A stretch of 64,000 bases of DNA from a virus: IMG/VR virus record IMGVR_UViG_3300048573_000442; one strand, given 5' to 3'. Both the position numbers and the translations under genes were made by a program. Below are positions 32,589 through 61,946 of this stretch, piece after piece (within the stretch, counting starts at the first letter, position 1; each line of letters opens with the position of its first letter). Under the pieces are notes generated by a model. It made no database searches. It was not told the DNA's origin and was given only the letters and a program-made list of their open reading frames with translations.

Positions 32589-34580
32589 TTAAACTAGACC
32601 AAAGGGAACGGGTTCGCCTCCGAACTGGTCCCCGTCTAAAGATGTATCAAGGTCAGAGTCTGCAGCGACATTCTCATACACTAGTTTCTGCGCAATTTCG
32701 CTTTCACCAGAAAGATATTTTAGCAGCTTAATAACAAGTAGGGTTGCTGAAATAGTGTCGTCTGTTGCTCCTTTTTTCGCAGCATAGGACCCACCAGCAG
32801 CAATATAATTTTGAAGTTCAAAATGCAAAACATCAGAATTGATGATCAACCCGTTATTAATTCGCTCAATCAAGTTCTTCATTTGCATACACGCTAGCAG
32901 TTTTGAAGAGCCCGTAGTATAGCACCCGAACTTTCCATTATTCTCATTATACAAATTGACGCCGTCAATATCAACGCCTTCTCCATCATCATTTTGCAAC
33001 ATTGCAACTAAAGCTTCGCCAATACCATTCCGTTCAAAAGTCCAAAGAACTTCTGCTGAATTACGATTGGCATCAGAAGCCCTAAGGTGTTTAAGAAGCC
33101 ATTTAATTTTGGCATAAATTAATGGGATATTAACAGTGTTTAAGCGAAGTTCGGCGACCTGTTCCAATGACGGAAACTCGAACACTTCTATAGCAGTGAA
33201 ATCGCTTCCTGTGCCAGTAGCAGGATCGACACCGACTAAGTACATTCGGTTGGGGCCTGAAACTTCTTTCCAAAATTTAAAGCCCATATTTTCAAATAGT
33301 GGCGGTTTTGTTTGTAAGGAATGAAGTTTGCGGGTATCTACTAGCAACGCATCTGAAGAAAGGAATTCGCAGTCTACTTCTTGGCGAACTTTAACTGGGC
33401 CCAATTTGCCTTTCATTTCGTCATAGTATTTTTGGTCACGTTCTGGATGTTCATGCCAAAGAGCTTTTACGGGGAAAAATGAATTTTGGCCAGAATTGGC
33501 ACCGCGCCATATAGTTGCAAATAGGTCACTATCTCCGTTGGGAGTACTAGTCAGAATAAATTTGCCACCTGTGGACAATGAAGGCGCAATAGAAGCCCAC
33601 ATTTCTTCTTGAATTCTTCGATTTAAGAAGGCAATTTCATCGATAAAAAGGCAGTTATGACTTATGACGGAATTAGTAATATAAGAATGGACATCTTCAA
33701 CCTGAACCAAATCATAGACCGTTTGGCTTTCGCAGTGTGGCAGTAGACTCAGAACTTTTAAATTCCGGTCAATAATATCGCCAGTCAATAATTCGCTAGC
33801 GGGCCTAAATTCACCGTTGGCAAATATCTTGTGATCTGGTGTGCAAATTAGATTAGACCTATCACTAAACTCCAGTTTCAAAGTTTTGGAGTTTTTAGTT
33901 TCTAGTAATCCGGTAAAGTCTTTAAATCCTGAACCAGTTAAAACCTGAAAGCCCGCTATTTCGTAAAATCCTTTTCGTGGAAGTTCTGATAAGTAGTCTA
34001 CAAGACTAAGGATACGTTCAATCGGAATAACTTGTATTTCACCAGTTTCTTTATTCCTAATGGTTATTTTTGTAGACCCGTCTACGCATGACGGCGAACC
34101 ACCTCGACCTGTCTTTTCGCTAGTTGCTTCAGATTTTATTTTTGATCCATTGTCAAATTCTATACTCGTCCTAGAATAATACCGACATCCCGGTTTCAAC
34201 CAAGCGGGCAATTCTTCATATGCGAATTTTATGCGTGACATAATCTCTGTTGCGTGGTTCATTGCTTTAGATGCAATAACTGCAAGTTTGTCATCTGCAA
34301 AGCATGTTAACCAAAGGATGTACATTGCGACGACAGTTGTTTTTCCCAATTGTCTGCTGGCAAGCACCACCGTGTCCTTTTTCTCATGTATGGCCGCTAA
34401 CATCCGTTTTTGGTATTCATACAGTTCCATTGGCAATATTCCCTTTGTAGGGTGCTGGACTTTTACGAACTTCTCGATGAAATACACCGGATCGCTTTTA
34501 CACCTTATGAGGTCTTGAATTGATTCTGGGGTATACTCAGTTTGAGCATACGCCTTTTTGATTGATAGATTGGTTGCCAT
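32589..34580 (-). CDS. terL: Terminase large subunit (T4 gp17-like) with intein
   Basis: LYEYQ, SRQLGKTT Walker A, FIDEIAF Walker B, TSTPNG motif III, GVDPATG nuclease, ATDD. Confidence 0.95.
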   Translation of the reverse strand: MATNLSIKKAYAQTEYTPESIQDLIRCKSDPVYFIEKFVKVQHPTKGILPMELYEYQKRMLAAIHEKKDTVVLASRQLGKTTVVAMYILWLTCFADDKLAVIASKAMNHATEIMSRIKFAYEELPAWLKPGCRYYSRTSIEFDNGSKIKSEATSEKTGRGGSPSCVDGSTKITIRNKETGEIQVIPIERILSLVDYLSELPRKGFYEIAGFQVLTGSGFKDFTGLLETKNSKTLKLEFSDRSNLICTPDHKIFANGEFRPASELLTGDIIDRNLKVLSLLPHCESQTVYDLVQVEDVHSYITNSVISHNCLFIDEIAFLNRRIQEEMWASIAPSLSTGGKFILTSTPNGDSDLFATIWRGANSGQNSFFPVKALWHEHPERDQKYYDEMKGKLGPVKVRQEVDCEFLSSDALLVDTRKLHSLQTKPPLFENMGFKFWKEVSGPNRMYLVGVDPATGTGSDFTAIEVFEFPSLEQVAELRLNTVNIPLIYAKIKWLLKHLRASDANRNSAEVLWTFERNGIGEALVAMLQNDDGEGVDIDGVNLYNENNGKFGCYTTGSSKLLACMQMKNLIERINNGLIINSDVLHFELQNYIAAGGSYAAKKGATDDTISATLLVIKLLKYLSGESEIAQKLVYENVAADSDLDTSLDGDQFGGEPVPFGLV
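33654..34088 (-). mobile_element. 145-aa mini-intein in TerL
   Basis: CVDGST...CTPDH...VYDL...SHN|C; sits just before Walker B. Confidence 0.9.
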
Positions 34581-34673: not shown

Positions 34674-34681
34674 TATAAATA
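34674..34681 (+). promoter_or_regulatory. T4 late promoter TATAAATA driving the LRR array
   Basis: Perfect consensus 42 nt upstream of ATG 34724. Confidence 0.65.
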
Positions 34682-34723: not shown

Positions 34724-35368
34724 ATGAAATTAAAACAATTATTTGAATCTACATCTAAACAAGAAGTTGAAACAGTCTTAAACAGGTACGGGATTGAGAA
34801 CTACACCATCAATGATGACTTGTCCGTGGATGTCGATGGAGATGTTGATCTAAGTGAAAATAAGTTGAGTTCGATTCCTGTCAATTTTGGGAAGATCAGT
34901 GGAATTTTTGACTGCTCTAACAACCTGCTAACCTCTTTACAAGGAGCACCAAGAGAAATAGGCGGGTATTTCGGTTGCTCTGGTAACCAATTAGCCTCCT
35001 TACAAGGAGCACCAAGAGAAGTCGGTGGGGGCTTTAAATGCTCTGATAACAAATTAGCTTCTTTGCAGGGTGCGCCAAAAGAAGTAGGCGGGCATTTTTG
35101 GTGCTATCATAACCAATTAACCTCTTTGCAAGGCGGGCCAAGAGAAGTTAATGAGGGTTTTGATTGCTGTTATAACAAACTGACATCTTTACTGGGCGCG
35201 CCTAGGGTAGTAGGCTGGCATTTCAATTGCTTTAAAAACCGATTAACCTCTTTGCAAGGTGCACCTAGAGAAGTAGGCGGGGAGTTTAATTGCCGTTTTA
35301 ATCCAAAATTGACCTCACTTGACGGAATTGGCAATGTTGCCGGACAAATTAAAAGCGACCTATCATGA
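34724..35368 (+). CDS. LRR-like paralogue 1 (7 repeats)
   Basis: MKLKQLFES cap, 21-aa LTSLQGAPREVGGxFxCxxNx repeats, LDGIGNV cap. Confidence 0.85.
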   Translation: MKLKQLFESTSKQEVETVLNRYGIENYTINDDLSVDVDGDVDLSENKLSSIPVNFGKISGIFDCSNNLLTSLQGAPREIGGYFGCSGNQLASLQGAPREVGGGFKCSDNKLASLQGAPKEVGGHFWCYHNQLTSLQGGPREVNEGFDCCYNKLTSLLGAPRVVGWHFNCFKNRLTSLQGAPREVGGEFNCRFNPKLTSLDGIGNVAGQIKSDLS

Positions 35369-36018
35369 AATTAAAACAATTATTCGGATTCTCGTTTTCG
35401 ACCTCAAAAGAAAAAGTTGAAAACGTTCTTAAGAAATACAAAATCACAAACTATACAATCAATGACGATCTGTCTGTTGATGTGGATGAGGATATAGATT
35501 TTCGTGGTTCAAATTTAAAAAGATTTCCAATCAAATTTGGCAAAATAAAGGGAAATTTTAATTGTTCTAACACCCAGTTGGAAACGCTTAAAGATGGCCC
35601 GAATGAAGTCAGCGAAAACTTTTACTGTCACAATAACCAATTAGTATCTTTGGAAGGTGCGCCAAAAGAAGTGGGCGGGAGTTTTTGGTGCATGAAGAAC
35701 GAATTGATTTCTTTGAACGGTTCACCAAGGGAAGTAGGCGGGGATTTCAACTGCGACTTAAACCGACTAGCATCCTTACGGGGGGCCGCGCGTGAAGTGG
35801 GTGGCGCATTTGGCTGCGAGAGTAATGAACTGCAGACTTTGGAAGGATGCCCTCGCATTGTAGGCGGGGATTTTTATTGCTCTAAAAACAAATTAACATC
35901 TTTGCACGGCGCACCTAGAGAAATTGGCGGGGATTTTAATTGCCGTTTTAATCCAAATTTGACCTCACTTGACGGGATCGGCAATGTTGCCGGAGAAATT
36001 GAAAGCGATCTATCATGA
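35365..36018 (+). CDS. LRR-like paralogue 2 (7 repeats, most diverged)
   Basis: Same architecture; ATGA overlap. Confidence 0.85.
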   Translation: MKLKQLFGFSFSTSKEKVENVLKKYKITNYTINDDLSVDVDEDIDFRGSNLKRFPIKFGKIKGNFNCSNTQLETLKDGPNEVSENFYCHNNQLVSLEGAPKEVGGSFWCMKNELISLNGSPREVGGDFNCDLNRLASLRGAAREVGGAFGCESNELQTLEGCPRIVGGDFYCSKNKLTSLHGAPREIGGDFNCRFNPNLTSLDGIGNVAGEIESDLS

Positions 36019-36788
36019 AATTAAAACAGCTGTTTGAATCAGTGTCTAAACAAGATGTGGAATCCATCTTAAAGAAATACGGGATTAAGAACTATACCAT
36101 CAATGATGACATGTCAGTCGATGTTGATGGGGACGTGAAGCTAAATAATAATCACTTAAGTTCGATTCCTGTTAATTTTGGGAAAGTAAGTGGGCATTTT
36201 TGGTGTCATAAAAACCAATTAACTTCTTTACAAGGTACACCTAAAGAAGTCGGTAAGGATTTTGATTGTTCTCACAACCAATTAACTTCTTTACAAGGTG
36301 CTCCTGGGGAAGTTGGTGGCGGCTGTTTTAATTGCCACAACAACAAATTGACCTCTTTACAAGGTGCACCTAGAGAAATTGGTGGAAGTTTTTGGTGCGC
36401 TGATAACAAATTAACTTCTTTACAAGGCGGGCCAAGAGAAGTCGATGGGAGTTTTTCGTGCGCTAGTAACCAATTGTCCTCTTTACAAGGCGCTCCAAGA
36501 GAAGTTGGTGGGCATTTTTATTGCTCTAAAAACAAATTGACCTCTTTACAAGGTGCTCCTAGAGAAGTTGATGGGCATTTTTATTGCTCTAACAACCAAT
36601 TAACTTCTTTGCAAGGTGCTTCAAGAGAAGTTGGCGGAGGGTTTTGGTGCCATAATAACCAATTAACTTCTCTACAAGGCGCACCTAAGGAAGTCGGTGG
36701 GGATTTTAATTGCTCTAACAATCCGAATTTGGCATCACTTGACGGAATCGGCAATGTTGCCGGGCACATTTTTAGCAATCTATCATGA
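36015..36788 (+). CDS. LRR-like paralogue 3 (9 repeats)
   Basis: Same architecture; ATGA overlap. Confidence 0.85.
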   Translation: MKLKQLFESVSKQDVESILKKYGIKNYTINDDMSVDVDGDVKLNNNHLSSIPVNFGKVSGHFWCHKNQLTSLQGTPKEVGKDFDCSHNQLTSLQGAPGEVGGGCFNCHNNKLTSLQGAPREIGGSFWCADNKLTSLQGGPREVDGSFSCASNQLSSLQGAPREVGGHFYCSKNKLTSLQGAPREVDGHFYCSNNQLTSLQGASREVGGGFWCHNNQLTSLQGAPKEVGGDFNCSNNPNLASLDGIGNVAGHIFSNLS

Positions 36789-37492
36789 AATTAAGGCAAT
36801 TATTCGAATCTACATCTAAGCAAGATGTAGAATCCATCTTAAACAAATATAAAATAGCAAACTACGCTATCAATGATGACTTATCAGTAGATGTCGATGG
36901 AGATGTGGATCTGAGTAATAAGAAGTTAAGTTCGATTCCTGTTAATTTTGGGAAAGTAAGCGGAATTTTTGACTGCTCTAACAACCTGCTAACCTCTTTA
37001 CAAGGCGCACCTAGGGAAGTTGGTGGTGATTTTAATTGCTCTTATAGCCAGTTAACTTCCTTACAGGGTGCTCCTACCATAGCCTATGGTAATTTTATTT
37101 GCTCTGCCAACCAATTAACATCTTTGGAAAGGGCACCTAGGGAAGTAGGTGGGGATTTTATTTGCTCTAATAACCGTTTGATTTCTTTAAAGGGTGCACC
37201 TAGAGAAGTTGGAGGGCATTTCAGTTGCGCGCGTGCCAAACTGACATCTTTAGAAGGTGCACCTAGAAAAGTAGGTGGGAATTTTTGGTGTGTTAGCAAC
37301 CAATTGCCCTCTTTACAAGGCGGGCCTAAAGAAGTTGGTGGGGATTTTAACTGTAATAGTAACAAATTGACCTCTTTACAAGGCGCACCAAGAGAAGTTG
37401 GTGGGAGTTTTTGGTGCCGCAACAATCCGAATTTGACCTCACTTAACGGAATCAGTAATGTTGGCGGAGACGTTTTTAGCGACATAAAATGA
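36785..37492 (+). CDS. LRR-like paralogue 4 (8 repeats)
   Basis: Same architecture; ATGA overlap. Confidence 0.85.
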   Translation: MKLRQLFESTSKQDVESILNKYKIANYAINDDLSVDVDGDVDLSNKKLSSIPVNFGKVSGIFDCSNNLLTSLQGAPREVGGDFNCSYSQLTSLQGAPTIAYGNFICSANQLTSLERAPREVGGDFICSNNRLISLKGAPREVGGHFSCARAKLTSLEGAPRKVGGNFWCVSNQLPSLQGGPKEVGGDFNCNSNKLTSLQGAPREVGGSFWCRNNPNLTSLNGISNVGGDVFSDIK

Positions 37493-38265
37493 AATTAAAA
37501 CAATTATTTGAATCAGTTGCAGTCCCTAAACAAAAAGTTGAATCCATCCTTAAAAAATACAGGATCGAGAATTACGCCATTAATGATGACTTGTCAGTAG
37601 ATGTCGATGGAGATGTGGATCTAAGCTACAAGAAGTTAAGTTCGATTCCTGTCAATTTTGGGAAGGTTAGTGGCAGTTTTTATTGCTCTGACAACAAATT
37701 GACTTCTTTAGAAGGTGCACCGAGAGAAGTCAGTGGGGATTTTGATTGCACTCATAACCAATTAACTTCTTTACAAGGTTCACCTAGAGAAGTAGGCGGG
37801 CATTTTTACTGCTATCATAACCAATTAACTTCTTTACAGGGTTCACCTAGGGAAGTCAGCGGACATTTTTGGTGCTATAGCAACCAATTAACCTCTTTGC
37901 AAGAAGGTCCTAGAGAAGTCGGAGGGAATTTTAATTGCTCTGATAACGAATTGGTAACCATGCAAGGTTCACCTAGGGAAGTAGGCGGGCATTTTAACTG
38001 CTCTACCAACAAATTGACTTCTTTACAAGGTGCACCTAAAGAAGTAGGTGGGGATTTTAGGTGCTCTGGCAACCAATTAACATCTTTGGAAAGGGCGCCT
38101 AGAGAAGTTGGTAAGGATTTTATTTGCTCTGATAACAAATTAACTTCTTTACAAGGCGCACCTAGAGAAGTTGGTGGGCATTTTTTTTGCTACAACAACG
38201 TAAATTTAAAATCACTTGACGGAATCGGTAATGTAGCCGGAGAAATTGAAAGCGACCTATCATGA
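37489..38265 (+). CDS. LRR-like paralogue 5 (9 repeats)
   Basis: Same architecture; ATGA overlap. Confidence 0.85.
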   Translation: MKLKQLFESVAVPKQKVESILKKYRIENYAINDDLSVDVDGDVDLSYKKLSSIPVNFGKVSGSFYCSDNKLTSLEGAPREVSGDFDCTHNQLTSLQGSPREVGGHFYCYHNQLTSLQGSPREVSGHFWCYSNQLTSLQEGPREVGGNFNCSDNELVTMQGSPREVGGHFNCSTNKLTSLQGAPKEVGGDFRCSGNQLTSLERAPREVGKDFICSDNKLTSLQGAPREVGGHFFCYNNVNLKSLDGIGNVAGEIESDLS

Positions 38266-38969
38266 AATTAAAACAATTATTTGATTCAACTTCTAGACAA
38301 AAAGTTGAATCTATCCTGAAAAAATATAAAATAACGAACTACGTCATTAACGACGACTTGTCTGTAGATGTCGATGGGGATGTGGATTTGGATAGTAAAC
38401 GCCTAAGTTCGATTCCTGTTAATTTCGGAAAAGTTAGTGGGAGTTTTGATTGCTATAAAAACAAATTGACCTCTTTACAAGGTGTTCCGAGAGAAGTCGG
38501 TAAGGGTTTTGATTGTTCTCATAACCAATTAACATCTTTACAAGGTGCGCCTGGGGAAGTTGGTAGGGATTTTAACTGCTCTCATAACCAATTAACTTCT
38601 TTACAAGGTTCACCTAGGGAAGTCAACAGACATTTTTGGTGTTCTCACAACCAATTAACTTCTTTGCAAGGAGCACCTAGAGAAGTAGGTGAGCTTTTTA
38701 CTTGCGCTAATAACCAATTAACATCCTTACAAGGTGCACCTAGAGAAGTCGGTGGAGAGTTTTACTGCTATGGTAACAAATTGACCTCTTTGCAGGGTGC
38801 TCCTAGAGAAGTTGGCGGAGGGTTTTGGTGCAATAATAACGAATTGACCTCTTTGCAGGGTGCTCCTAGAGAAGTTGGTAAGGATTTTTGGTGTGGCAAA
38901 AATCCGAATTTGAAATCCCTTGACGGAATCGGCAATGTTGCCGGAGAAATTAAAAGCGACATAAAATGA
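38262..38969 (+). CDS. LRR-like paralogue 6 (8 repeats)
   Basis: Same architecture; ATGA overlap. Confidence 0.85.
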   Translation: MKLKQLFDSTSRQKVESILKKYKITNYVINDDLSVDVDGDVDLDSKRLSSIPVNFGKVSGSFDCYKNKLTSLQGVPREVGKGFDCSHNQLTSLQGAPGEVGRDFNCSHNQLTSLQGSPREVNRHFWCSHNQLTSLQGAPREVGELFTCANNQLTSLQGAPREVGGEFYCYGNKLTSLQGAPREVGGGFWCNNNELTSLQGAPREVGKDFWCGKNPNLKSLDGIGNVAGEIKSDIK

Positions 38970-39622
38970 AATTAAAACAACTATTTGAATCAGTTGCAGC
39001 CCCTAAACAAGAAGTTGAATCTATCCTAAAGAAATATGGTATCGAAAACTACACCATAAATGATGACTTGTCAGTAGATGTCGATGGAGATGTGGATCTA
39101 AGTAATAAACACCTAAGTTCATTTCCAGTGAATTTCGGAAAAGTTAGCGGGAGTTTTGATTGCTCTGACAACAAATTGGCAACTTTAGAAGGCGCACCAA
39201 GAGAAGTCGGCGGGGATTTTATCTGCTCTTCCAACAAATTGGCCTCTCTAAAAGGAGCGCCTAGAGAAGTCAGCGAGATTTTTAATTGCTCTTATAACCA
39301 ATTAACTTCTTTGCAAGGAGCGCCTAGAGAAGTGGATATAGATTTCATTTGCTCTTATAACAAATTAGCTTCTCTAAACGGCTCGCCAAGGGAAGTCGGT
39401 GGGAGCTTTTATTGCTTTAAAAACCAATTAACATCGCTAAAAGGAGCTCCTTGGGAAGTCAGCGAGAATTTTGATTGCTCTGACAACAAATTGACGACTT
39501 TAGAAGGCGCACCTAGAGAAATAGGTGGAAATTTTTATTGTTATGATAACCCAGATTTAAAATCCCTTGATGGAATCGGTAACGACAGCGTTGCCGGAGA
39601 AATTGGAAGCGACATAAAATGA
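38966..39622 (+). CDS. LRR-like paralogue 7 (7 repeats)
   Basis: Same architecture; ATGA overlap. Confidence 0.85.
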   Translation: MKLKQLFESVAAPKQEVESILKKYGIENYTINDDLSVDVDGDVDLSNKHLSSFPVNFGKVSGSFDCSDNKLATLEGAPREVGGDFICSSNKLASLKGAPREVSEIFNCSYNQLTSLQGAPREVDIDFICSYNKLASLNGSPREVGGSFYCFKNQLTSLKGAPWEVSENFDCSDNKLTTLEGAPREIGGNFYCYDNPDLKSLDGIGNDSVAGEIGSDIK

Positions 39623-40515
39623 AATTAAAACAATTATTTGAATCAACTTCTGGACAAGAAGTTGAATCTATCCTAAAGAAATACGGTATCGAAAACTACA
39701 CCATAAATGATGACTTGTCAGTAGATGTCGATGGAGATGTGGAGTTAAATAATAATAGCTTAAGTTCAATTCCTGTCAATTTTGGGAAAGTTAGCGGCAG
39801 TTTTAATTGCCTTTTTAACAAACTGGCTTCTTTGCAAGGCGCACCAAGAGAAGTCGATGGAGATTTTATTTGCTCTCATAACCAATTAACTTCTTTACAA
39901 GGCGCGCCAAGAGAAGTCGGAGGGAATTTTTATTGCTATCACAACAAATTAACTTCTTTGCAAGGTGCTCCTGGGGAAGTTGGTGGAAATTTTTATTGCT
40001 ATCGCAACAAATTAACCTCTTTGCAAGGTGCATCTAGGGAAGTGGGTGGGAGTTTTGATTGCTCTGAAAACCAATTAACATCCTTACAAGGTGCACCGAG
40101 AGAAGTAGGCGGGGCTTTTAATTGCTCTGGCAACCAATTAACATCCCTACAAGGTGCACCTAGGGAAGTAGGTGGAAGTTTTTATTGTTATCACAACAAA
40201 TTAACTTCTTTACAAGGCGCATCTAGGGAAGTTGGTAGGGTTTTTGATTGCTCTTATAATGAATTAATGTCCTTACAAGGTGCACCTAGAGAAGTGGGTG
40301 GGAATTTTGTTTGCTCTCATAACCAATTAACTTCTTTGCAGGGTGCACCGAGAGAAGTTGGCGGGAGTTTTTATTGCGGTAGCAATCATTTGTCCTCTTT
40401 GCAAGGAGCTCCTAGGGAAGTTGGTGGAAATTTTTATTGCTCCAAAAATTCAAATTTGTCCTCACTTGACGGGATCGGCAATGTAGCCGGAGAAATTGAA
40501 AGCGACATTAAATGA
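39619..40515 (+). CDS. LRR-like paralogue 8 (11 repeats)
   Basis: Same architecture; ATGA overlap. Confidence 0.85.
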   Translation: MKLKQLFESTSGQEVESILKKYGIENYTINDDLSVDVDGDVELNNNSLSSIPVNFGKVSGSFNCLFNKLASLQGAPREVDGDFICSHNQLTSLQGAPREVGGNFYCYHNKLTSLQGAPGEVGGNFYCYRNKLTSLQGASREVGGSFDCSENQLTSLQGAPREVGGAFNCSGNQLTSLQGAPREVGGSFYCYHNKLTSLQGASREVGRVFDCSYNELMSLQGAPREVGGNFVCSHNQLTSLQGAPREVGGSFYCGSNHLSSLQGAPREVGGNFYCSKNSNLSSLDGIGNVAGEIESDIK

Positions 40516-40595
40516 AATTAAAACTGTCAGTTGCAACCTCTAAACATGTTCAGCAACTTATTTCATGTGTTCCGAAAGGTCTTGCCAACTTTTAA
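40512..40595 (+). pseudogene. Remnant start of a ninth LRR gene
   Basis: ATGA-coupled ATGAAATTAAAACTGTCAGTTGCAACCTCTAAACA, a deleted version of the paralogue 5/7 start; 27-aa ORF running into the convergent gene. Confidence 0.55.
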
Positions 40596-41406
40596 TTTCG
40601 GGATTAGTTTCTACCAGCTTACGCATTTTGTCCCACACGTTTTGCGGGATAACAATTGCGCCGCCGTCAAACCATACTTCCTGATGTTTCTCTGAATGTC
40701 TAAGAGTTGCTGGAGTACACGCATGCATTTGCAGTTTAGAAGGTGAGTATGCGTCTAAAATTGTTTCTAAAAAATGTTTACGGAAATCGTCGTTCTGCAA
40801 CAGTTCCGAATAATCACTTTGTTGTATTCGTTCGTATGCTTCGCTATCTACATCGCGTATTTGCACATCGAACTGTTCCAGCGATTCAAATGGGTCAGTT
40901 CCTGTGTCCAGTCCTGTATTCAGACCTGTCTCTACAAAGGCAGCCAAATAATCATTCATTTCATTAATTGGTTCCAAATTTCCAAAAAGATCAATAATCT
41001 TTTCCCAGATGTCAAGATCGCCGACTTCTCCGATTTTTGCGTTTTTAACCGGGAGCACAATGTATCTCTCATCGCCAAAACCCTTAGCGTAGGCTAAATT
41101 TGTAGTGCATATCATTGATTGACTTCGCTTAGGAAAATCTTTCATCTCTGGGTGATTATCGAAAATGGTTGTGTACCAATTGGATGTATTTTGGCTTTTG
41201 CGTTTTGTCTTTGTCAAATCAACATAGGAAAAACCTAAACCAGCTCTCATGCCCCGATAGAATGGCTGCTGTTCTTTGAGCATCCAGAATAAATCTGGGC
41301 AATGTTCGTTCAAGTAAAAGGTGATAGGACGAGTAGTAAGCGGTTCAAACACCTGTTTAAGTGAACCTTCTGCTTTTGCTTCTAAGAATGTTTTAAATGT
41401 TTTCAT
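40558..41406 (-). CDS. ADP-ribosyltransferase-like paralogue A
   Basis: MKTFKTFLE; FYRG, SMICTT...AKGFG, QEVWF. Confidence 0.55.
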   Translation of the reverse strand: MKTFKTFLEAKAEGSLKQVFEPLTTRPITFYLNEHCPDLFWMLKEQQPFYRGMRAGLGFSYVDLTKTKRKSQNTSNWYTTIFDNHPEMKDFPKRSQSMICTTNLAYAKGFGDERYIVLPVKNAKIGEVGDLDIWEKIIDLFGNLEPINEMNDYLAAFVETGLNTGLDTGTDPFESLEQFDVQIRDVDSEAYERIQQSDYSELLQNDDFRKHFLETILDAYSPSKLQMHACTPATLRHSEKHQEVWFDGGAIVIPQNVWDKMRKLVETNPEIKSWQDLSEHMK

Positions 41407-42247
41407 TTTTCATAGCTTCCGATAAATCTTGCCAATTTCTAATTCGTTTTTTGCTTGATCTATACATACTTCTCATTTTGTTCCATTCGTCTAATGGAAT
41501 AATAATGGCACCAGTATCAAACCACACCTCATGCCCTATATAAGTCAGTTCTTCGATTTCGCCAAATGCGGACCCATCAATCCGCAGCACTTTCGGCGAA
41601 TACGCCTTCAAAATTGATTCCAAGAACAAATTTGTAAATTCGGTCTTCTCTAATAGGGACGAATATTTGCTGTTTTTAAGTCTTTGAAAAACTTGGCTAT
41701 TTACATCTTTTATTTGGCGGTCAAATTCCTGCAGAAGCCCAAACGAGCATTTTTCTGTTTTTAGTCCACATTGAATGATTCCGGAAAAGAAATCATTCAT
41801 TGTTTTTATTTCTACTTCATCCCCAAAAATTTTAATCCAAAGGTCCCAAATGTCCGACACGTAAATTTCTGCTACTTTAGCATTTTTAACTGGCAGGATA
41901 GCATATACCTGACTTCCAAATCCATGTGCATAATCGAAATCGGTGGTACAAATCATAGACTCGCTTCTTTTCGGGAGATGACTCATTTCAGGATGATTGT
42001 CAAATATTTCCGTGTACCAATTAGAAGAGTTTTGGCTTTTACGTTTTGTCCCTGTCAAATCAACAAATGAAACACTTAGACCTGATCTCATGCCACGGTA
42101 CAGAACTGCTTTCTCCGTCAGCGCCCAGAACGTATCGGGGCAATACTTATTTAGGTAGTAGGCAGCTGGATGTTCCGTAAGGGGCTGATACACTAGCGAA
42201 GCAGAACCTTCTGCTTTTGCTTCTAGGAATGTTTTAAACGTTTTCAT
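41393..42247 (-). CDS. ADP-ribosyltransferase-like paralogue B
   Basis: MKTFKTFLE; LYRG, SMICTT...AHGFG, HEVWF. Confidence 0.55.
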   Translation of the reverse strand: MKTFKTFLEAKAEGSASLVYQPLTEHPAAYYLNKYCPDTFWALTEKAVLYRGMRSGLSVSFVDLTGTKRKSQNSSNWYTEIFDNHPEMSHLPKRSESMICTTDFDYAHGFGSQVYAILPVKNAKVAEIYVSDIWDLWIKIFGDEVEIKTMNDFFSGIIQCGLKTEKCSFGLLQEFDRQIKDVNSQVFQRLKNSKYSSLLEKTEFTNLFLESILKAYSPKVLRIDGSAFGEIEELTYIGHEVWFDTGAIIIPLDEWNKMRSMYRSSKKRIRNWQDLSEAMKNENI

Positions 42248-42825: not shown

Positions 42826-43072
42826 TTAGGATGTTATGTTCGGGTATTGTTAATTTGCCAGCAGAGATTAGATCTCTTCTAATGACTATTAGTCTAGTCA
42901 ATTCTTTAGACAAATGGGATATTTGATCTGAAGTTGATTGGCGATTATATTTTTGAACGTATTTGTTAATCGCATCTTGAGTCATATAGTTAATGACATC
43001 GGAGTAATGATTTATCCGTTCGCTATCAACCACAAAAGCGGTTTTAACTTTTTCAGTAATAATCTTTGACAT
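42791..43072 (-). CDS. Hypothetical protein (93 aa)
   Basis: ORF track, overlaps both neighbours. Confidence 0.4.
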   Translation of the reverse strand: MSKIITEKVKTAFVVDSERINHYSDVINYMTQDAINKYVQKYNRQSTSDQISHLSKELTRLIVIRRDLISAGKLTIPEHNILNETHNSLHSRI

Positions 43073-43835
43073 GTTTCTGTAAATCTTGCCAATCGTCTAT
43101 ATTGATAATGACTGCGCCTTTATCAAACCAAACTTCCCCCTGAATTATTTTCGAGGATTCAAGTGTTGCGGTAGTTTTTGCCAGTAGGCCAGTTTTTCTA
43201 GGAGAATATGCATCAAATAATTCTTTAAGAAAATCGCTTGAAATGACACGTTTATATTTTTCGGCAAAACGCAATCTTTCAATAATTTCACCGTTTTTAT
43301 TTTTTAGGGCTTCATCGAATTTTACCAATGCATTAAAACAGGATTCATCTTCTTCATCATAATCAAGCAGGTTTTTTAAAAAATAATTTGCGTCGATCAG
43401 TGAAAGCGATTTCCCGAATAGGGTTGTCCTAAGATCCCACATGTCCTGTTCGCCAACTAAACCTATTTTTGAACCGTTTACAGGAATCACTGCAAATACT
43501 GATCCAAACGCACTTGCATAACCTTTAGATGTGGAGCAAATTATAGATTTGCTACGTTTGGGAAAGTCCTGCATTTCGGGGTGATTATCAAAAATTTCAG
43601 TATAAAAATTATTGGTGTTTTGGCTTTTCCTGGCCGTCCTTGCCAAATTGACAAAAGCAGGAGGATGATCCCATTGTAGCTTCCCGAATCCCCGATAAAA
43701 TGGTTTATCTTGCTCGATCATCCATAAAGAATCAGAACAATGCCTTTTTAGAAATTCGTGTATGTGATCAATTGGTTCAAATACCTGTTTAGGCGAATCT
43801 TCCGCTTTTGCTTCTAAGAAAGTTTTAAATTTCAT
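43053..43835 (-). CDS. ADP-ribosyltransferase-like paralogue C
   Basis: MKFKTFLE; FYRG, SIICSTSKGYASAFG, GEVWF. Confidence 0.6.
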   Translation of the reverse strand: MKFKTFLEAKAEDSPKQVFEPIDHIHEFLKRHCSDSLWMIEQDKPFYRGFGKLQWDHPPAFVNLARTARKSQNTNNFYTEIFDNHPEMQDFPKRSKSIICSTSKGYASAFGSVFAVIPVNGSKIGLVGEQDMWDLRTTLFGKSLSLIDANYFLKNLLDYDEEDESCFNALVKFDEALKNKNGEIIERLRFAEKYKRVISSDFLKELFDAYSPRKTGLLAKTTATLESSKIIQGEVWFDKGAVIINIDDWQDLQKHVKDYY

Positions 43836-46242: not shown

Positions 46243-46539
46243 TTATCTCTTGTCGTAATTAACGTGTATTACTTTTGCTTTAATTACGCCAAGGCCCTGA
46301 AGTATATGTTTTTTCAACCGCAATGTCAACTTTTCAGACAGGTCTTTTTGAAAGCCTAGATCCCTAGGTCTGTCTGCACAATCCGTCCTGAACTCTATAA
46401 CAGTTTGTGGCCCCTCATCTAATAAATGGATGCTAAAGATCTTACAAGCAATGAGTTCTTCTTCAGCAATGTGGTGCAGCATGTTTTCCCATTTTTTAAG
46501 GTGTTCTTCACGCTTAAGGAATTCTTTAAATGTCTTCAT
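46243..46539 (-). CDS. Hypothetical protein (98 aa), internal-protein-like tag
   Basis: MKTFKEFLKRE; ATGA coupling. Confidence 0.55.
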   Translation of the reverse strand: MKTFKEFLKREEHLKKWENMLHHIAEEELIACKIFSIHLLDEGPQTVIEFRTDCADRPRDLGFQKDLSEKLTLRLKKHILQGLGVIKAKVIHVNYDKR

Positions 46540-59088: not shown

Positions 59089-59550
59089 CTATGTGTTTAC
59101 AATTTCGCCGTCCACGTTCCCGATTCCGTCAAGCGTTTTCAGCATCGGATTGTTAAAGCACCAAAAATCTCTACCAACTTCTCTAGGTGAACCTTTTAAA
59201 GATGTCAATTGGTTTTCAGAGCACTTAAAGCTCCCACCGACTTCTCTTGGGGCACCTTGTAAAGAGATCAATTTGTTGGCATGGCACCAAAACCCTCCGC
59301 TTACTTCTCTCGGCGCACCTTGTAAAGATGCCAATTGGTTGCCAGAGCAATCAAAATATTTTGTTACTTTGCCAAATTGAACAGGGATTACAGTTAAAGA
59401 CTTCCCATATAAATCTACTCCGCCATCCACATCAACAGTCAAGTCATCATTGATTGCGTAGTTCGTTATTTTATATTTATTTAGGATCGATTCAACTTCT
59501 TCTTTAGAAGAAGGAAATCTGGTATTTTCAAACAGCTGTTTTAACTTCAT
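59089..59550 (-). CDS. LRR-like paralogue 9 (4 repeats)
   Basis: MKLKQLFEN cap, same 21-aa repeat; ATGA overlap with the gp14 stop. Confidence 0.85.
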   Translation of the reverse strand: MKLKQLFENTRFPSSKEEVESILNKYKITNYAINDDLTVDVDGGVDLYGKSLTVIPVQFGKVTKYFDCSGNQLASLQGAPREVSGGFWCHANKLISLQGAPREVGGSFKCSENQLTSLKGSPREVGRDFWCFNNPMLKTLDGIGNVDGEIVNT

Positions 59551-61418: not shown

Positions 61419-61946
61419 TCATGTTAAATCGCTCGCTATTTCGTCTTCGACACTGCCGATTCCGTCAAGAGACGTCAAATTCGGATTCTTAGAACAATTA
61501 AAACTTCCACCTACTTTTCTAGGAGCGCCCCGTAAAGATGTTAATCGATTGCTATTGCACCAAAACCCGCCATTAACTTCTCTAGGTGCGCCTTGCAAAG
61601 AAGTCAAATTGTTGTTAGAGCAATCAAAATCCCCACTCACTTCTCTAGGAGCACCTTGTAAAGATGTCAATTGATTAGCAAAGCAATTAAAACCTCCACC
61701 CACTTCTTTAGGCGCTCCTTGTAAAGAAGTCAGATGGTTAGCAGAGCAATTAAAATCCCCATTTACTTCCCCGAATTTAACAGGAATAGCTGTCAGTTGT
61801 TGCCAATACAGATCCACGTCCCCGTCAACATCAACCGTCAAGTCGTTGTTGATAACGTAATGCTTGATTCGGTATTTTTCCAGTACCTCTTCTACTTCTT
61901 GTTTAGAAGTGGGAAAGTGCGATTCAAATAATTGTTTTAATTTCAT
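61419..61946 (-). CDS. LRR-like paralogue 10 (5 repeats)
   Basis: MKLKQLFES cap, same repeat, SDLT end. Confidence 0.85.
   Translation of the reverse strand: MKLKQLFESHFPTSKQEVEEVLEKYRIKHYVINNDLTVDVDGDVDLYWQQLTAIPVKFGEVNGDFNCSANHLTSLQGAPKEVGGGFNCFANQLTSLQGAPREVSGDFDCSNNNLTSLQGAPREVNGGFWCNSNRLTSLRGAPRKVGGSFNCSKNPNLTSLDGIGSVEDEIASDLT

What the first reader, a model, noticed from the sequence alone, without database searches (positions are those of the whole stretch)
34724..40515. Tandem array of eight LRR-like paralogues with hypervariable faces: a phage-encoded binder repertoire
Seen: eight genes, each joined to the next by an ATGA overlap, with constant N-cap (MKLKQLFES...YTINDDLSVDVDGDV) and C-cap (LDGIGNV..I.SD), enclosing 7,7,9,8,9,8,7,11 copies of a 63-bp/21-aa unit LTSLQGAPREVGGxFxCxxNx (66 units counted by eye). 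The scaffold is nearly invariant while the residues around FxCxxN vary freely (W/Y/N/D/I/K/S...). Established: in LRR solenoids those positions form the concave ligand-binding beta-sheet, the surface diversified in lamprey VLRs. Inference: a family of binders with different specificities, generated by repeat shuffling and copy-number change, possibly neutralising host defence proteins. It has its own perfect late promoter (34674).
Basis: partly seen in the sequence, partly recalled or inferred. Interest (0 to 1): 0.9.

Follow-up and report, generated by a model that had tools for sequence, protein, structure and literature searches.

The report
Phage array of variable LRR binders
An uncultured freshwater T4-type giant phage carries eight back-to-back genes (plus two more nearby) for small leucine-rich-repeat proteins that keep an identical scaffold but differ at almost every residue of the predicted binding face, which suggests a built-in panel of binders, possibly loaded into the phage head and injected into the host.

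Summary
Observation confirmed. Window 34724-40515 (+) holds eight genes (214-298 aa), every junction an ATGA overlap. They carry 7,7,9,8,9,8,7,11 = 66 copies of a 21-aa unit, xFxCxxNxLTSLQGAPREVGG, between constant caps. Two more paralogues lie in the neck/tail operon (59089-59550 and 61419-61946, minus strand).

AlphaFold2 gives a confident LRR solenoid (pLDDT 95). The nearest known proteins are InlJ (21-aa cysteine-ladder LRR) and the IpaH/SspH/YopM effector LRRs.

The four x positions are LRR positions 3, 5, 7 and 8 of the concave strand:
- Entropy is 2.6-3.2 bits there, against 0.5 or less at ten core scaffold positions.
- dN/dS is 1.2-1.7, against 0.11-0.12.
- 64 distinct four-residue signatures occur among 65 units, rich in S/N/D/Y/H/W.

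A relative with an 89% identical terminase has a different array at the same site. More distant complete relatives have none. The family is large (over 5,000 metagenomic proteins), viral and unnamed.

Function is inferred only. The best reading is a germline binder panel made late. A separable 9-residue leader (MKLKQLFE|S) resembles T4 internal-protein capsid-targeting sequences, which suggests head packaging and injection (about 40%). Targets are unknown.

The scan had already noted this family in other phage genomes.

The parts
34674..34681 (+). TATAAATA, a T4-type late-promoter-like motif 42 nt upstream of gene 1
   Evidence: It is one of four in the window. All four are intergenic and co-oriented with a downstream ORF. 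Function not tested.
34724..35368 (+). LRR gene 1: 214 aa, 7 units. The only gene with a nearby Shine-Dalgarno sequence (GGGGA)
   Evidence: The first 181 aa are identical in an independent JGI contig, L018.
35365..36018 (+). LRR gene 2: 217 aa, 7 units. The divergent member, with leader MKLKQLFG
   Evidence: Its N-cap is 57-63% identical to the other seven, but 70% identical to the first LRR gene of relative L020.
36015..36788 (+). LRR gene 3: 257 aa, 9 units, with one 1-residue insertion
   Evidence: Pfam LRR_4 scores 42.6 bits.
36785..37492 (+). LRR gene 4: 235 aa, 8 units
37489..38265 (+). LRR gene 5: 258 aa, 9 units. This is the paralogue that was modelled
   Evidence: AF2 pLDDT 95.4, pTM 0.88. 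Fold matches. InlJ E 4.7e-21 and SspH2 E 5.8e-16.
38262..38969 (+). LRR gene 6: 235 aa, 8 units, with leader MKLKQLFD
   Evidence: Pfam LRR_4 scores 45.2 bits.
38966..39622 (+). LRR gene 7: 218 aa, 7 units
39619..40515 (+). LRR gene 8: 298 aa, 11 units
   Evidence: Matches phrog_21719 and phrog_7816, both of unknown function.
40512..40524 (+). Relic of a ninth gene start. ATGAAATTAAAAC is identical to the first 13 nt of the paralogues and overlaps the stop of gene 8; the sequence then diverges
   Evidence: compared with the gene starts.
59089..59550 (-). Ninth paralogue: 153 aa, 4 units. Its start overlaps, by ATGA, the stop of the 615-aa virion structural gene upstream. A gp15-like gene follows
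   Evidence: The exact protein occurs on 8 JGI contigs, the longest 198 kb.
61419..61946 (-). Tenth paralogue: 175 aa, 5 units. It lies between the gp13/14-like adaptor gene and the 615-aa structural gene

Best explanation
The array is a germline-encoded panel of small soluble LRR binders.

1. A late transcript starts at the TATAAATA motif. Gene 1 is translated from its own Shine-Dalgarno sequence. Genes 2-8 are translated by termination-reinitiation at the ATGA overlaps.
2. Each product folds into a 7-11-turn solenoid with a cysteine-ladder core, an N-terminal helix cap and a C-cap.
3. Each turn shows four hypervariable residues on the concave sheet, 28-44 per protein. These are rich in Ser, Asn, Asp, Tyr, His and Trp, so each paralogue should bind a different ligand.
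4. The first nine residues, MKLKQLFE|S, are a separable leader. It resembles the capsid-targeting propeptides of T4 internal proteins and ends in the L-x-E site of the gp21-type prohead protease.
5. I therefore think the proteins are loaded into the prohead, trimmed, ejected with the DNA, and bind host proteins at the start of the next infection. The most plausible targets are polymorphic defence proteins, as with T4 Ip1-3 against GmrSD variants.

Shown: gene structure, fold (predicted), and the position and selection pattern of the variation.
Inferred: late expression, packaging, injection and targets.
For: Structure and register:
- AF2 model with pLDDT 95.4.
- Foldseek best hits are IpaH3, SspH1, IpaH7.8, SspH2 and YopM. 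VIA-align gives Z 16-19 to many LRR proteins.
- phmmer finds InlJ at 4.7e-21 and SspH2 at 5.8e-16. The alignment puts F at LRR position 4, C at 6 and N at 9.

Diversification:
- Entropy is 2.6-3.2 bits at the x positions, against 0.5 or less at the ten core scaffold positions F, C, N, L, S, L, G, P, E, V.
- Pooled dN/dS is 1.21 against 0.12. In 160 close unit pairs it is 1.67 against 0.11.
- There are 64 distinct signatures among 65 units; composition is S 22%, N 14%, D 14%, Y 10%, H 10%.
- Synonymous sites are near saturation (pS 0.5-0.6), so the scaffold is held by selection and not by recent copying.

Turnover:
- A relative with an 89% identical terminase has other LRR genes at the same site.
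- Complete relatives at 53-55% terminase identity have none.

Late expression:
- The TATAAATA motif is well placed.
- Two paralogues sit inside the neck/tail operon, one joined by ATGA to a structural gene.

Leader:
- T4 IPII and IPIII start MKTYQEFIAE, and IPI starts MKTFKEF.
- In this window an unrelated 98-aa ORF starts MKTFKEF, three phrog_12810 paralogues start MKTFKTFLEA or MKFKTFLEA, and the LRR genes start MKLKQLFES.
- gp21 cuts after L/I-x-E, and the CTS is 10-19 residues long (PMC9026906).
- L-F-E ends at residue 8 in 8 of the 10 paralogues. The protein bodies hold 2 such motifs against 16 expected from shuffles (the repeats are not independent).
- Residues 1-10 have pLDDT 61, against 92 or more elsewhere.
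- The same LRR module occurs without the leader in a small phage that lacks the S77 protease and in a two-module Halarcobacter protein.
- The gp21-type protease is present in 4 of 4 large relatives.

Precedent:
- T4 Ip1, Ip2 and Ip3 each block one GmrSD variant (PMC12373910).
Against: - There are no proteomic, expression or binding data of any kind.
- The leader matches the T4 CTS at only about 4 of 9 positions. Position 4, important for targeting in IPIII, is Lys here and not Tyr.
- Genes 2 and 6 lack the Glu.
- The leader is modelled as the start of the cap helix, so it could be purely structural.
- The proteins are neutral to acidic and weigh 17-32 kDa, unlike the small basic T4 internal proteins.
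- The protease, scaffold and late sigma factor of this particular phage could not be examined, because no genome is held.
- The count of TATAAATA motifs is not above chance.
- Some family members are fused to a GH19 hydrolase or sit in tail modules of other phages (PMC10945359). This fits an extracellular or cell-wall role as well.
Confidence: 0.4

Rival explanations
1. The proteins are cytoplasmic binders that act inside the producing cell and are not packaged. Made in the infected cell, they would bind host or competitor-phage proteins directly. Possible roles are blocking late-acting abortive-infection sensors or proteases, or excluding superinfecting phages.
For: - The fold and diversification evidence is the same as for the best explanation.
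- There is no signal peptide or membrane segment.
- There is no recognisable virion-anchoring domain.
- The leader may simply be part of the cap helix 2-23.
- About half of the N-terminal-LRR relatives lack a clear leader.
Against: - A late promoter motif and embedding in neck/tail operons are unusual for counter-defence proteins, which are needed early.
- The same type of leader sits on unrelated accessory families in this genome and matches T4 IPI in its first seven residues. A structural role in the LRR cap does not explain this.
Confidence: 0.25
2. The proteins are virion-exposed adhesins or decoration proteins. They would attach to the neck, collar, fibres or capsid and bind host-surface or environmental ligands, widening or tuning adsorption.
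For: - Two paralogues lie between the gp13/14-like, 615-aa structural and gp15-like genes, one translationally coupled to the structural gene.
- The promoter motif is of the late type.
- LRR or beta-helix domains occur on putative host-recognition fibres of phage Goslar.
- An LRR-like ORF lies in a vibriophage tail module.
- A family member in contig L019 is fused to a GH19 peptidoglycan/chitin hydrolase.
Against: - No domain beyond the caps could anchor the protein to a virion.
- Eight separate small genes lie away from the tail-fibre genes.
- The closest solved analogues by sequence are LRR domains that bind proteins.
- The Cys ladder and lack of disulfide caps fit a cytoplasmic protein, although this is weak evidence.
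Confidence: 0.2
3. The variation has no binder function. The array would be a selfish or neutral repeat expansion, or a set of redundant structural or chaperone proteins in which the x positions are merely unconstrained.
For: dN/dS near 1 at the x positions over all pairs (1.21) is compatible with relaxed constraint rather than positive selection. No ligand is known.
Against: - All ten genes are intact, with the scaffold under strong purifying selection despite near-saturated synonymous sites.
- The variable positions use a narrow alphabet (S, N, D, Y, H, G and W make up 80%, with almost no K, R, E, L, V, T, P or Q), which is not neutral drift.
- dN/dS is 1.67 in close pairs.
- The family is kept in thousands of viral contigs.
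Confidence: 0.05

Closest known systems
Listeria monocytogenes internalin J (InlJ, PDB 3bz5), the 21-residue 'cysteine ladder' LRR
   Same: It is the best sequence match among solved structures (E 4.7e-21; NCBIfam internalin_J local hit). It shares the 21-residue period and has Cys at LRR position 6 in every unit, followed by N-x-L-T-x-L.
   Different: InlJ is a secreted, cell-wall-anchored 800+ aa bacterial adhesin with an internalin cap, an inter-repeat domain and a sorting signal. The phage proteins are 153-298 aa, have no signal peptide, have their own caps, and have a G-A-P-R-E-V-G-G second half in each unit.
LRR domains of type III secreted effectors IpaH, SspH1/2, SlrP and YopM (bacterial or LPX-type LRR)
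   Same: They are the best Foldseek matches (IpaH3 at 6.6e-5, SspH1, IpaH7.8, SspH2, YopM). SspH2 scores E 5.8e-16 and is 27% identical, sharing the N-Q-L-T-S-L string and a Pro at the same place. In these proteins a short LRR solenoid with a helical N-cap is injected into a target cell and binds host proteins on its concave face.
   Different: The effector unit is 20 residues (22 in some YopM repeats) with P-x-L-P, and Val rather than Cys. IpaH and SspH carry a C-terminal NEL E3-ligase domain and a T3SS signal. The phage proteins have neither. NCBIfam scores are far below the family cut-offs (73 against 1243 bits).
Phage T4 internal proteins Ip1, Ip2 and Ip3 with their capsid-targeting sequence
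   Same: Both occur in a T4-type phage and are non-essential-looking accessory genes. Both have a short N-terminal leader starting MK and carrying Phe at position 7, ending in L/I-x-E. Several diverse paralogous or analogous proteins occur per phage. In T4 each inhibits one variant of a polymorphic defence nuclease.
   Different: The folds are unrelated, and the T4 internal proteins are small and basic. Leader identity is only partial. Packaging, cleavage and injection are not shown for the LRR proteins.
Lamprey and hagfish variable lymphocyte receptors (VLRs)
   Same: Both are LRR solenoids with a constant scaffold and caps, a variable number of units, and diversity concentrated on the concave strand. 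Hagfish VLR A29 appears among the fold matches (rank 12).
   Different: VLR diversity is made somatically by copying cassettes into one incomplete germline gene, and the caps are disulfide-bonded LRRNT/LRRCT. Here every variant is a complete germline gene. The Pfam LRRNT hits lie inside repeats and at best just clear the cut-off (29.1 and 26.1 against 25.8 bits in genes 3 and 6).
Expanded repeat-protein families of giant viruses and megaphages (LRR, ankyrin, FNIP)
   Same: Both involve many paralogous repeat proteins per large viral genome. Fold matches include LRR proteins of Marseille-, Mimi- and Pitho-like viruses and of uncultured Caudovirales. tblastn finds 14 places in a 735-kb uncultured phage and hits in Lak phages.
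   Different: Those families are mostly longer-period LRRs of eukaryotic viruses. No function, tandem coupling or per-position diversification has been reported for them in the papers I could search.

Membership tests
Leucine-rich repeat (LRR) superfamily | Tandem 20-30-residue units with the conserved segment LxxLxLxxN/CxL | tested here: met
   66 units of 21 aa carry F-x-C-x-x-N-x-L, with F, C and L invariant and N in 55 of 58. Pfam LRR_4 is above its cut-off in genes 3, 5, 6 and 8.
Leucine-rich repeat (LRR) superfamily | Curved solenoid with a parallel beta-sheet on the concave face, closed by caps | tested here: met
   This is a predicted structure only. AF2 pLDDT is 95.4, with one short strand at x-F-x per unit, an N-terminal helix at 2-23 and a C-cap. 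VIA-align gives Z 16-19 to many solved LRR proteins.
InlJ-type cysteine-ladder LRR (internalins) | 21-residue unit with Cys replacing the hydrophobic residue at LRR position 6 | tested here: met
   Cys is present in 58 of 58 internal units. The alignment to 3bz5 puts it in register with the InlJ Cys.
InlJ-type cysteine-ladder LRR (internalins) | Secreted, wall-anchored internalin architecture: signal peptide, internalin cap, inter-repeat region and sorting signal | tested here: not met
   There is no signal peptide or extra domain. The proteins end 15-20 residues after the last unit. The NCBIfam internalin_J score is 37-41 bits against a cut-off of 1700.
IpaH/SspH/YopM LPX-type effector LRR | 20-residue (or 22-residue) unit LxxLPxLPxxLxxLxVxxNxL | tested here: not met
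   The unit is 21 residues, with G-A-P in place of P-x-L-P and Cys in place of Val. It shares N-Q-L-T-S-L and one Pro.
IpaH/SspH/YopM LPX-type effector LRR | C-terminal NEL E3-ligase domain (IpaH, SspH, SlrP) and an N-terminal secretion signal | tested here: not met
   No domain other than the LRR was found by Pfam, PHROGs or NCBIfam.
T4-type internal proteins (capsid-targeted, injected) | N-terminal propeptide of 10-19 residues resembling MKTYQEFIAE or MKTFKEF | tested here: inconclusive
   MKLKQLFES shares M1, K2, Q5 and F7 with IPII/IPIII. Position 4 differs. The leader is separable from the fold.
T4-type internal proteins (capsid-targeted, injected) | Propeptide ends in the gp21 site L/I-x-E | tested here: met
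   L-F-E ends at residue 8 in 8 of the 10 paralogues. Gene 2 has G and gene 6 has D at that place. The motif definition comes from PMC9026906. This is a sequence motif only.
T4-type internal proteins (capsid-targeted, injected) | Genome encodes a gp21-type (Peptidase_S77) prohead protease and scaffold core | not testable with these tools
   The rest of this genome is not held. The protease is present in four large relatives by terminase and in a Vibrio phage carrying the LRR family.
T4-type internal proteins (capsid-targeted, injected) | Protein found, processed, inside virions and ejected with the DNA | not testable with these tools
   This needs virion proteomics or reporter fusions.
Variable lymphocyte receptors | Somatic assembly of one incomplete gene from flanking LRR cassettes | tested here: not met
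   All ten copies are complete, capped ORFs. Identical pieces occur in three metagenome runs.
Diversity-generating retroelement targets | A template repeat nearly identical to the variable region, plus a reverse transcriptase | tested here: not met
   No pair of 300-nt blocks exceeds about 83% identity. No reverse transcriptase appeared among the window proteins scanned. Not every small ORF was scanned.

The most novel reading that the evidence does not exclude
T4-type and other large phages carry a germline 'antibody-like' repertoire. This would be panels of head-packaged LRR binders, each with a different concave face, injected together with the DNA. Whichever variant of a polymorphic host defence protein the next cell carries would then be met by a matching inhibitor. 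If so, the unnamed family of more than 5,000 viral proteins would be a major, unrecognised class of injected counter-defence proteins, and also a natural library of small, cysteine-ladder binder scaffolds.
Probability: 0.3. Interest if true: 0.85.

Novelty: new variant of a known kind. Interest (0 to 1): 0.65.

Why it matters
If the reading is right, phages solve the problem of polymorphic host immunity in a new way. T4 uses a handful of unrelated inhibitors. Here one stable scaffold would be copied many times with a reprogrammed binding face, the logic of VLRs and plant NLR-LRRs but on the virus side.

It would give a function to a very large, purely viral, unnamed protein family. It would extend the T4 internal-protein concept to jumbo phages with a recognisable cargo type. 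It would also offer small, naturally diversified LRR scaffolds for binder engineering.

Even without the packaging step, the per-position selection pattern identifies which residues to mutate or swap in binding tests.

Tried and rejected
- Megablast of the array against 50,697 phage records found no match.
- The window's own genome is not held. The prohead protease, scaffold, late sigma factor and the further LRR genes reported by another note could therefore not be examined.
The single-protein scan found only 8 loci, all in MAGs.
- Complex prediction of the ninth paralogue with the 615-aa neck/structural protein gave no verdict. It is not used as evidence either way.
- Read laying joints and 'other letters' could not be read as copy-number or strain variants. 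At 90% likeness paralogous units cross-map (42-48 records fit two places), and Logan contigs break inside the array.
- Four exact 151-nt contigs in one metatranscriptome run do not show transcription, because DNA carry-over is not excluded.
- The copy number of the array in relative L020 cannot be fixed. An 'NN' scaffold join with a 23-nt overlap lies inside its first LRR gene.
- The eight array proteins are not in the 15-billion-protein collection. This is probably because assemblies break 168 bp upstream of the terminase, so population variants could not be listed.
- The Pfam LRRNT, DUF4893 and Mfp-3 hits lie inside repeats and are mostly below the cut-off (LRRNT just clears it in genes 3 and 6). 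I treated them as noise.
- The terminator-like hits inside the genes come from the A-P-R-E-V-G-G codons forming a 6-bp hairpin followed by T-rich G-x-F codons. Only 8 of 66 units show it and synonymous sites there vary, so it was rejected as a signal.
- A DNA-mimic idea (strongly acidic surface) was rejected, because pI is 4.6-7.5.
- Partner domains of fused family members were mostly unidentifiable.
- The review of LRRs in dsDNA viruses (Matsushima et al., Arch Virol 2021) is not held, so I cannot say whether it lists this unit type.

Full report
**Observation**

The stretch 34724-40515 carries eight plus-strand ORFs of 214, 217, 257, 235, 258, 235, 218 and 298 aa. Every junction reads ATGA, so each stop overlaps the next start. 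Anchoring on F-x-C gives 7,7,9,8,9,8,7,11 = 66 units spaced exactly 21 residues apart, with one single-residue insertion in gene 3. Tandem Repeats Finder sees the 63-bp period and also 126- and 189-bp periods.

The unit, framed so that the variable patch is contiguous, is x-F-x-C-x-x-N-x-L-T-S-L-Q-G-A-P-R-E-V-G-G. All eight genes share the N-cap (MKLKQLFES...YTINDDLSVDVDGDV) and the C-cap (LDGIGNV..I.SD).

One is at 59089-59550 (153 aa, 4 units) and the other at 61419-61946 (175 aa, 5 units). After the stop of gene 8 the first 13 nt of a further gene start (ATGAAATTAAAAC) survive and then diverge. This is a relic of array growth or decay.

**Is the array real?**

- Contigs carrying the identical terminase end 168 bp upstream of it, at the array, in several assemblies.
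- An independent JGI contig carries the first 181 residues of gene 1 unchanged.
- Twenty-three freshwater metagenome runs hold 45-93% of the array's sampled words.
- Exact-match pieces from three of these runs cover junctions 1/2, 2/3, 3/4, 5/6 and 7/8.

**Genomic context**

The window belongs to an uncultured T4-type jumbo myovirus.

- The large terminase carries an intein. Its best match is Ralstonia phage RsoM2USA at 45%, followed by PA5oct and XacN1.
- Replication and lysis genes include ribonucleotide reductase, helicase, UvsX, gp32 and endolysin.
- Structural genes include tail sheath, tube, gp15-like and gp13/14-like proteins.

The array is the only long plus-strand block. It diverges from the terminase gene and converges on a run of accessory paralogue families (phrog_12810, phrog_11975, a zeta-toxin-like kinase, an alpha/beta hydrolase and a LamG lectin). 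The two extra paralogues sit between neck genes. One has its start joined by ATGA to the stop of a 615-aa structural gene.

**Fold**

AlphaFold2 on gene 5, with a 30-sequence alignment, gives pLDDT 95.4 and pTM 0.88. The model has an N-terminal helix at residues 2-23, two small cap hairpins, then one short strand at x-F-x and one at E-V in every unit.

- Foldseek's best solved matches are the LRR domains of IpaH3, SspH1, IpaH7.8, SspH2, YopM and IpaH1.4 (E 7e-5 to 7e-4).
- VIA-align gives Z 16-19 to a wide range of LRR proteins, essentially tied.
- By sequence the nearest solved proteins are InlJ (E 4.7e-21) and SspH2 (E 5.8e-16). Their alignments fix the register: F is LRR position 4, C is position 6 (the InlJ cysteine ladder), N is position 9 and L is position 11.
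- NCBIfam gives only local hits to SspH2, InlJ and SlrP, far below their cut-offs.

The proteins are therefore LRR solenoids of a subtype that combines the 21-residue cysteine ladder of InlJ with the N-Q-L-T-S-L...P pattern of the bacterial effector type.

**Where the variation lies**

In the 58 internal units the four x positions of x-F-x-C-x-x-N have 2.6-3.2 bits of entropy and 11-14 residue types each. By the register above these are LRR positions 3, 5, 7 and 8, the outward-facing residues of the concave strand. By contrast F, C and L are invariant, and N, S, L, G, P, E and V have 0.5 bits or less.

- Synonymous differences are near saturation (pS 0.5-0.6). The scaffold is therefore kept by purifying selection (dN/dS 0.12) and not by recent copying. 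The variable codons give dN/dS 1.21.
- Restricting the comparison to 160 unit pairs with at least 86% scaffold nucleotide identity gives 1.67 against 0.11. Amino-acid identity is 19% at variable positions and 89% at scaffold positions.
- The 65 internal units of all ten genes show 64 distinct four-residue signatures; only one signature recurs. The alphabet is narrow: S 22%, N 14%, D 14%, Y 10%, H 10%, G 6%, W 4%. This looks like a binding-site alphabet and not like drift.

**Origin and turnover**

Units average 65% nucleotide identity. For 58 of 66 units the most similar unit lies in another gene, and same-gene neighbours are no more frequent than with shuffled labels (8 against 7.5). Some best pairs are positional (g3u2-g6u2, g5u3-g6u3) and others are not (g5u8-g8u2, g5u2-g8u9). 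This is a mosaic history. No 300-nt block exceeds about 83% identity, so there has been no recent exchange within this array.

- Genes 1 and 3-8 have N-caps 75-89% identical to one another. Gene 2 is the outlier at 57-63%.
- A relative whose terminase is 89% identical (IMG/VR contig, L020) also has LRR genes diverging from the terminase. Its first gene is the counterpart of window gene 2 (70%). Its 215-aa and 319-aa genes have no clear counterpart (69% or less). It also has a 7-of-8 late-promoter-like motif. Its copy number is uncertain because of an NN scaffold join.
- Complete 331-368 kb relatives at 53-55% terminase identity have no member of the family.
- Another phage contig (L019) has five or six coupled LRR genes in a different neighbourhood, the last fused to a GH19 hydrolase.

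The array is therefore an accessory, fast-turning locus. The criterion 'identical across related phages' is not met either.

**Size and range of the family**

- A word-indexed search found 5,119 proteins at E 1e-5 or better among the 8,000 candidates scored, with top identities of 51-63%.
- The nearest ESM Atlas clusters are 98-100% viral.
- PHROGs has two matching families of unknown function.
- Only 29 deposited phage genomes match. These include a 735-kb uncultured phage (14 places), Lak phages and two Vibrio phages.
- A scan of 185,579 species genomes found 8 loci, all in MAGs.
- I found no paper describing such arrays.

Earlier notes of this scan report the same family in other phage genomes. 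Their follow-ups reached similar conclusions. I treat those as leads, not as evidence.

**Expression signals**

- TATAAATA lies at 34674-34681. The count of four in the window is not above chance.
- All four are intergenic and lie 25-91 nt upstream of co-oriented ORFs: an 80-aa ORF, the endolysin, gp32 and LRR gene 1.
- Gene 1 has a GGGGA Shine-Dalgarno sequence. The other seven lack one near the ATG. This fits coupled translation.

**The leader**

T4 IPII and IPIII begin MKTYQEFIAE, and IPI begins MKTFKEF. In this window a 98-aa ORF begins MKTFKEF, three phrog_12810 paralogues begin MKTFKTFLEA or MKFKTFLEA, and the LRR genes begin MKLKQLFES. No core structural or replication gene matches the pattern.

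From the literature:
- T4 capsid-targeting propeptides are 10-19 residues long. Residues 4 and 7 matter for targeting, and 8 and 10 for processing.
- gp21 cuts after L/I-x-E.
- An Asp at the cleavage position blocks processing but not targeting (PMC9026906).
- Internal proteins are diverse defence inhibitors that share only the targeting sequence (PMC3012670).
- Ip1, Ip2 and Ip3 each block one GmrSD variant (PMC12373910).

In this window:
- L-F-E ends at residue 8 in 8 of the 10 paralogues. The protein bodies contain 2 such motifs against 16 expected from shuffles. The repeats are not independent, so this is weak.
- Residues 1-10 are the only low-confidence part of the model (pLDDT 61).
- The LRR module with its cap occurs without the leader in a complete 31.5-kb phage that lacks the S77 protease, and twice within one Halarcobacter protein.
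- About half of the N-terminal-LRR relatives have a comparable leader.
- The gp21-type protease is present in all four large relatives tested.

The leader is thus a separable, portable tag of the T4 internal-protein type. That it works as one is an inference.

**Mechanism and odds**

I am confident (about 0.85) that these are LRR binders with paralogue-specific concave faces. Beyond that:

| Reading | Odds |
|---|---|
| Late synthesis, head packaging through the leader, trimming and injection, acting on host proteins early in the next infection | about 0.4 |
| Cytoplasmic binders that are not packaged | about 0.25 |
| Virion-exposed adhesins | about 0.2 |
| No binder function | about 0.05 |

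The complex prediction between the ninth paralogue and its coupled neighbour gave no verdict and is not used.

**Comparison and novelty**

The proteins work like the LRR substrate-recognition domains of injected bacterial effectors. As a set they resemble a germline version of the VLR principle. They are not members of the internalin, IpaH/SspH or VLR families, because defining features fail (see the membership table). Membership of the T4 internal-protein class is open.

I rate this a new variant of a known kind. The fold and the idea of variable LRR faces are familiar. A translationally coupled, fast-turning panel of such binders in a phage, with an internal-protein-like tag, is not described in what I could search.

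Noticed in passing
window 32589-34580 (-) and L020 4223-7507: The large terminase carries a mini-intein (CVDG...VISHN|C) next to the G-G-S-P-S / L-F-I-D-E segment. The 89%-identical relative L020 lacks it there. Instead L020 has a larger insertion at the Walker A site (G-K | T-T), with an embedded endonuclease-like ORF. The two close phages therefore have inteins at different terminase sites.
   Followed up: partly
window 40558-41406, 41393-42247, 43053-43835 and 46243-46539 (all -): Unrelated accessory proteins start MKTFKTFLEAKAE or MKFKTFLEAKAE (phrog_12810 paralogues) or MKTFKEFLK (98 aa). The latter is identical in its first seven residues to T4 internal protein I (MKTFKEF). The whole 40.5-51 kb block looks like a cargo or accessory island.
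   Followed up: partly
L019 12089-13525 (ENA contig, 101,898 bp): In another phage a coupled array of five or six LRR genes ends in a 478-aa protein. In that protein a degenerate LRR module is fused to a hydrophobic segment and a GH19 (chitinase/lysozyme-type) domain (Pfam E 1e-11).
   Followed up: partly
window 37134-37151, 37260-37277, 38674-38691, 40157-40174 and others: The codons for A-P-R-E-V-G-G often spell CACCTAGAGAAGTAGGTG, a 6-bp hairpin followed by T-rich codons. This produces 8 of the 11 'terminator-like' hits inside the genes. It is probably a by-product of the repeat.
   Followed up: partly
L051 3983-5482 (Halarcobacter ebronensis MAG chromosome): A 499-aa bacterial protein contains two complete modules of this LRR type, each with its own N-cap but without the MK...LFE leader. 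It is one of only 8 matches in 185,579 species genomes.
   Followed up: no
L020 3817-3818: An 'NN' scaffold join with a 23-nt duplicated overlap lies inside the first LRR gene of the relative. This shows how such arrays break or collapse in short-read assemblies.
   Followed up: yes
window 13749, 18942, 24476 (-) and 34674 (+): All four perfect TATAAATA motifs lie 25-91 nt upstream of co-oriented ORFs: an 80-aa ORF, the endolysin, gp32 and LRR gene 1. This fits T4-type late promoters in this phage.
   Followed up: partly
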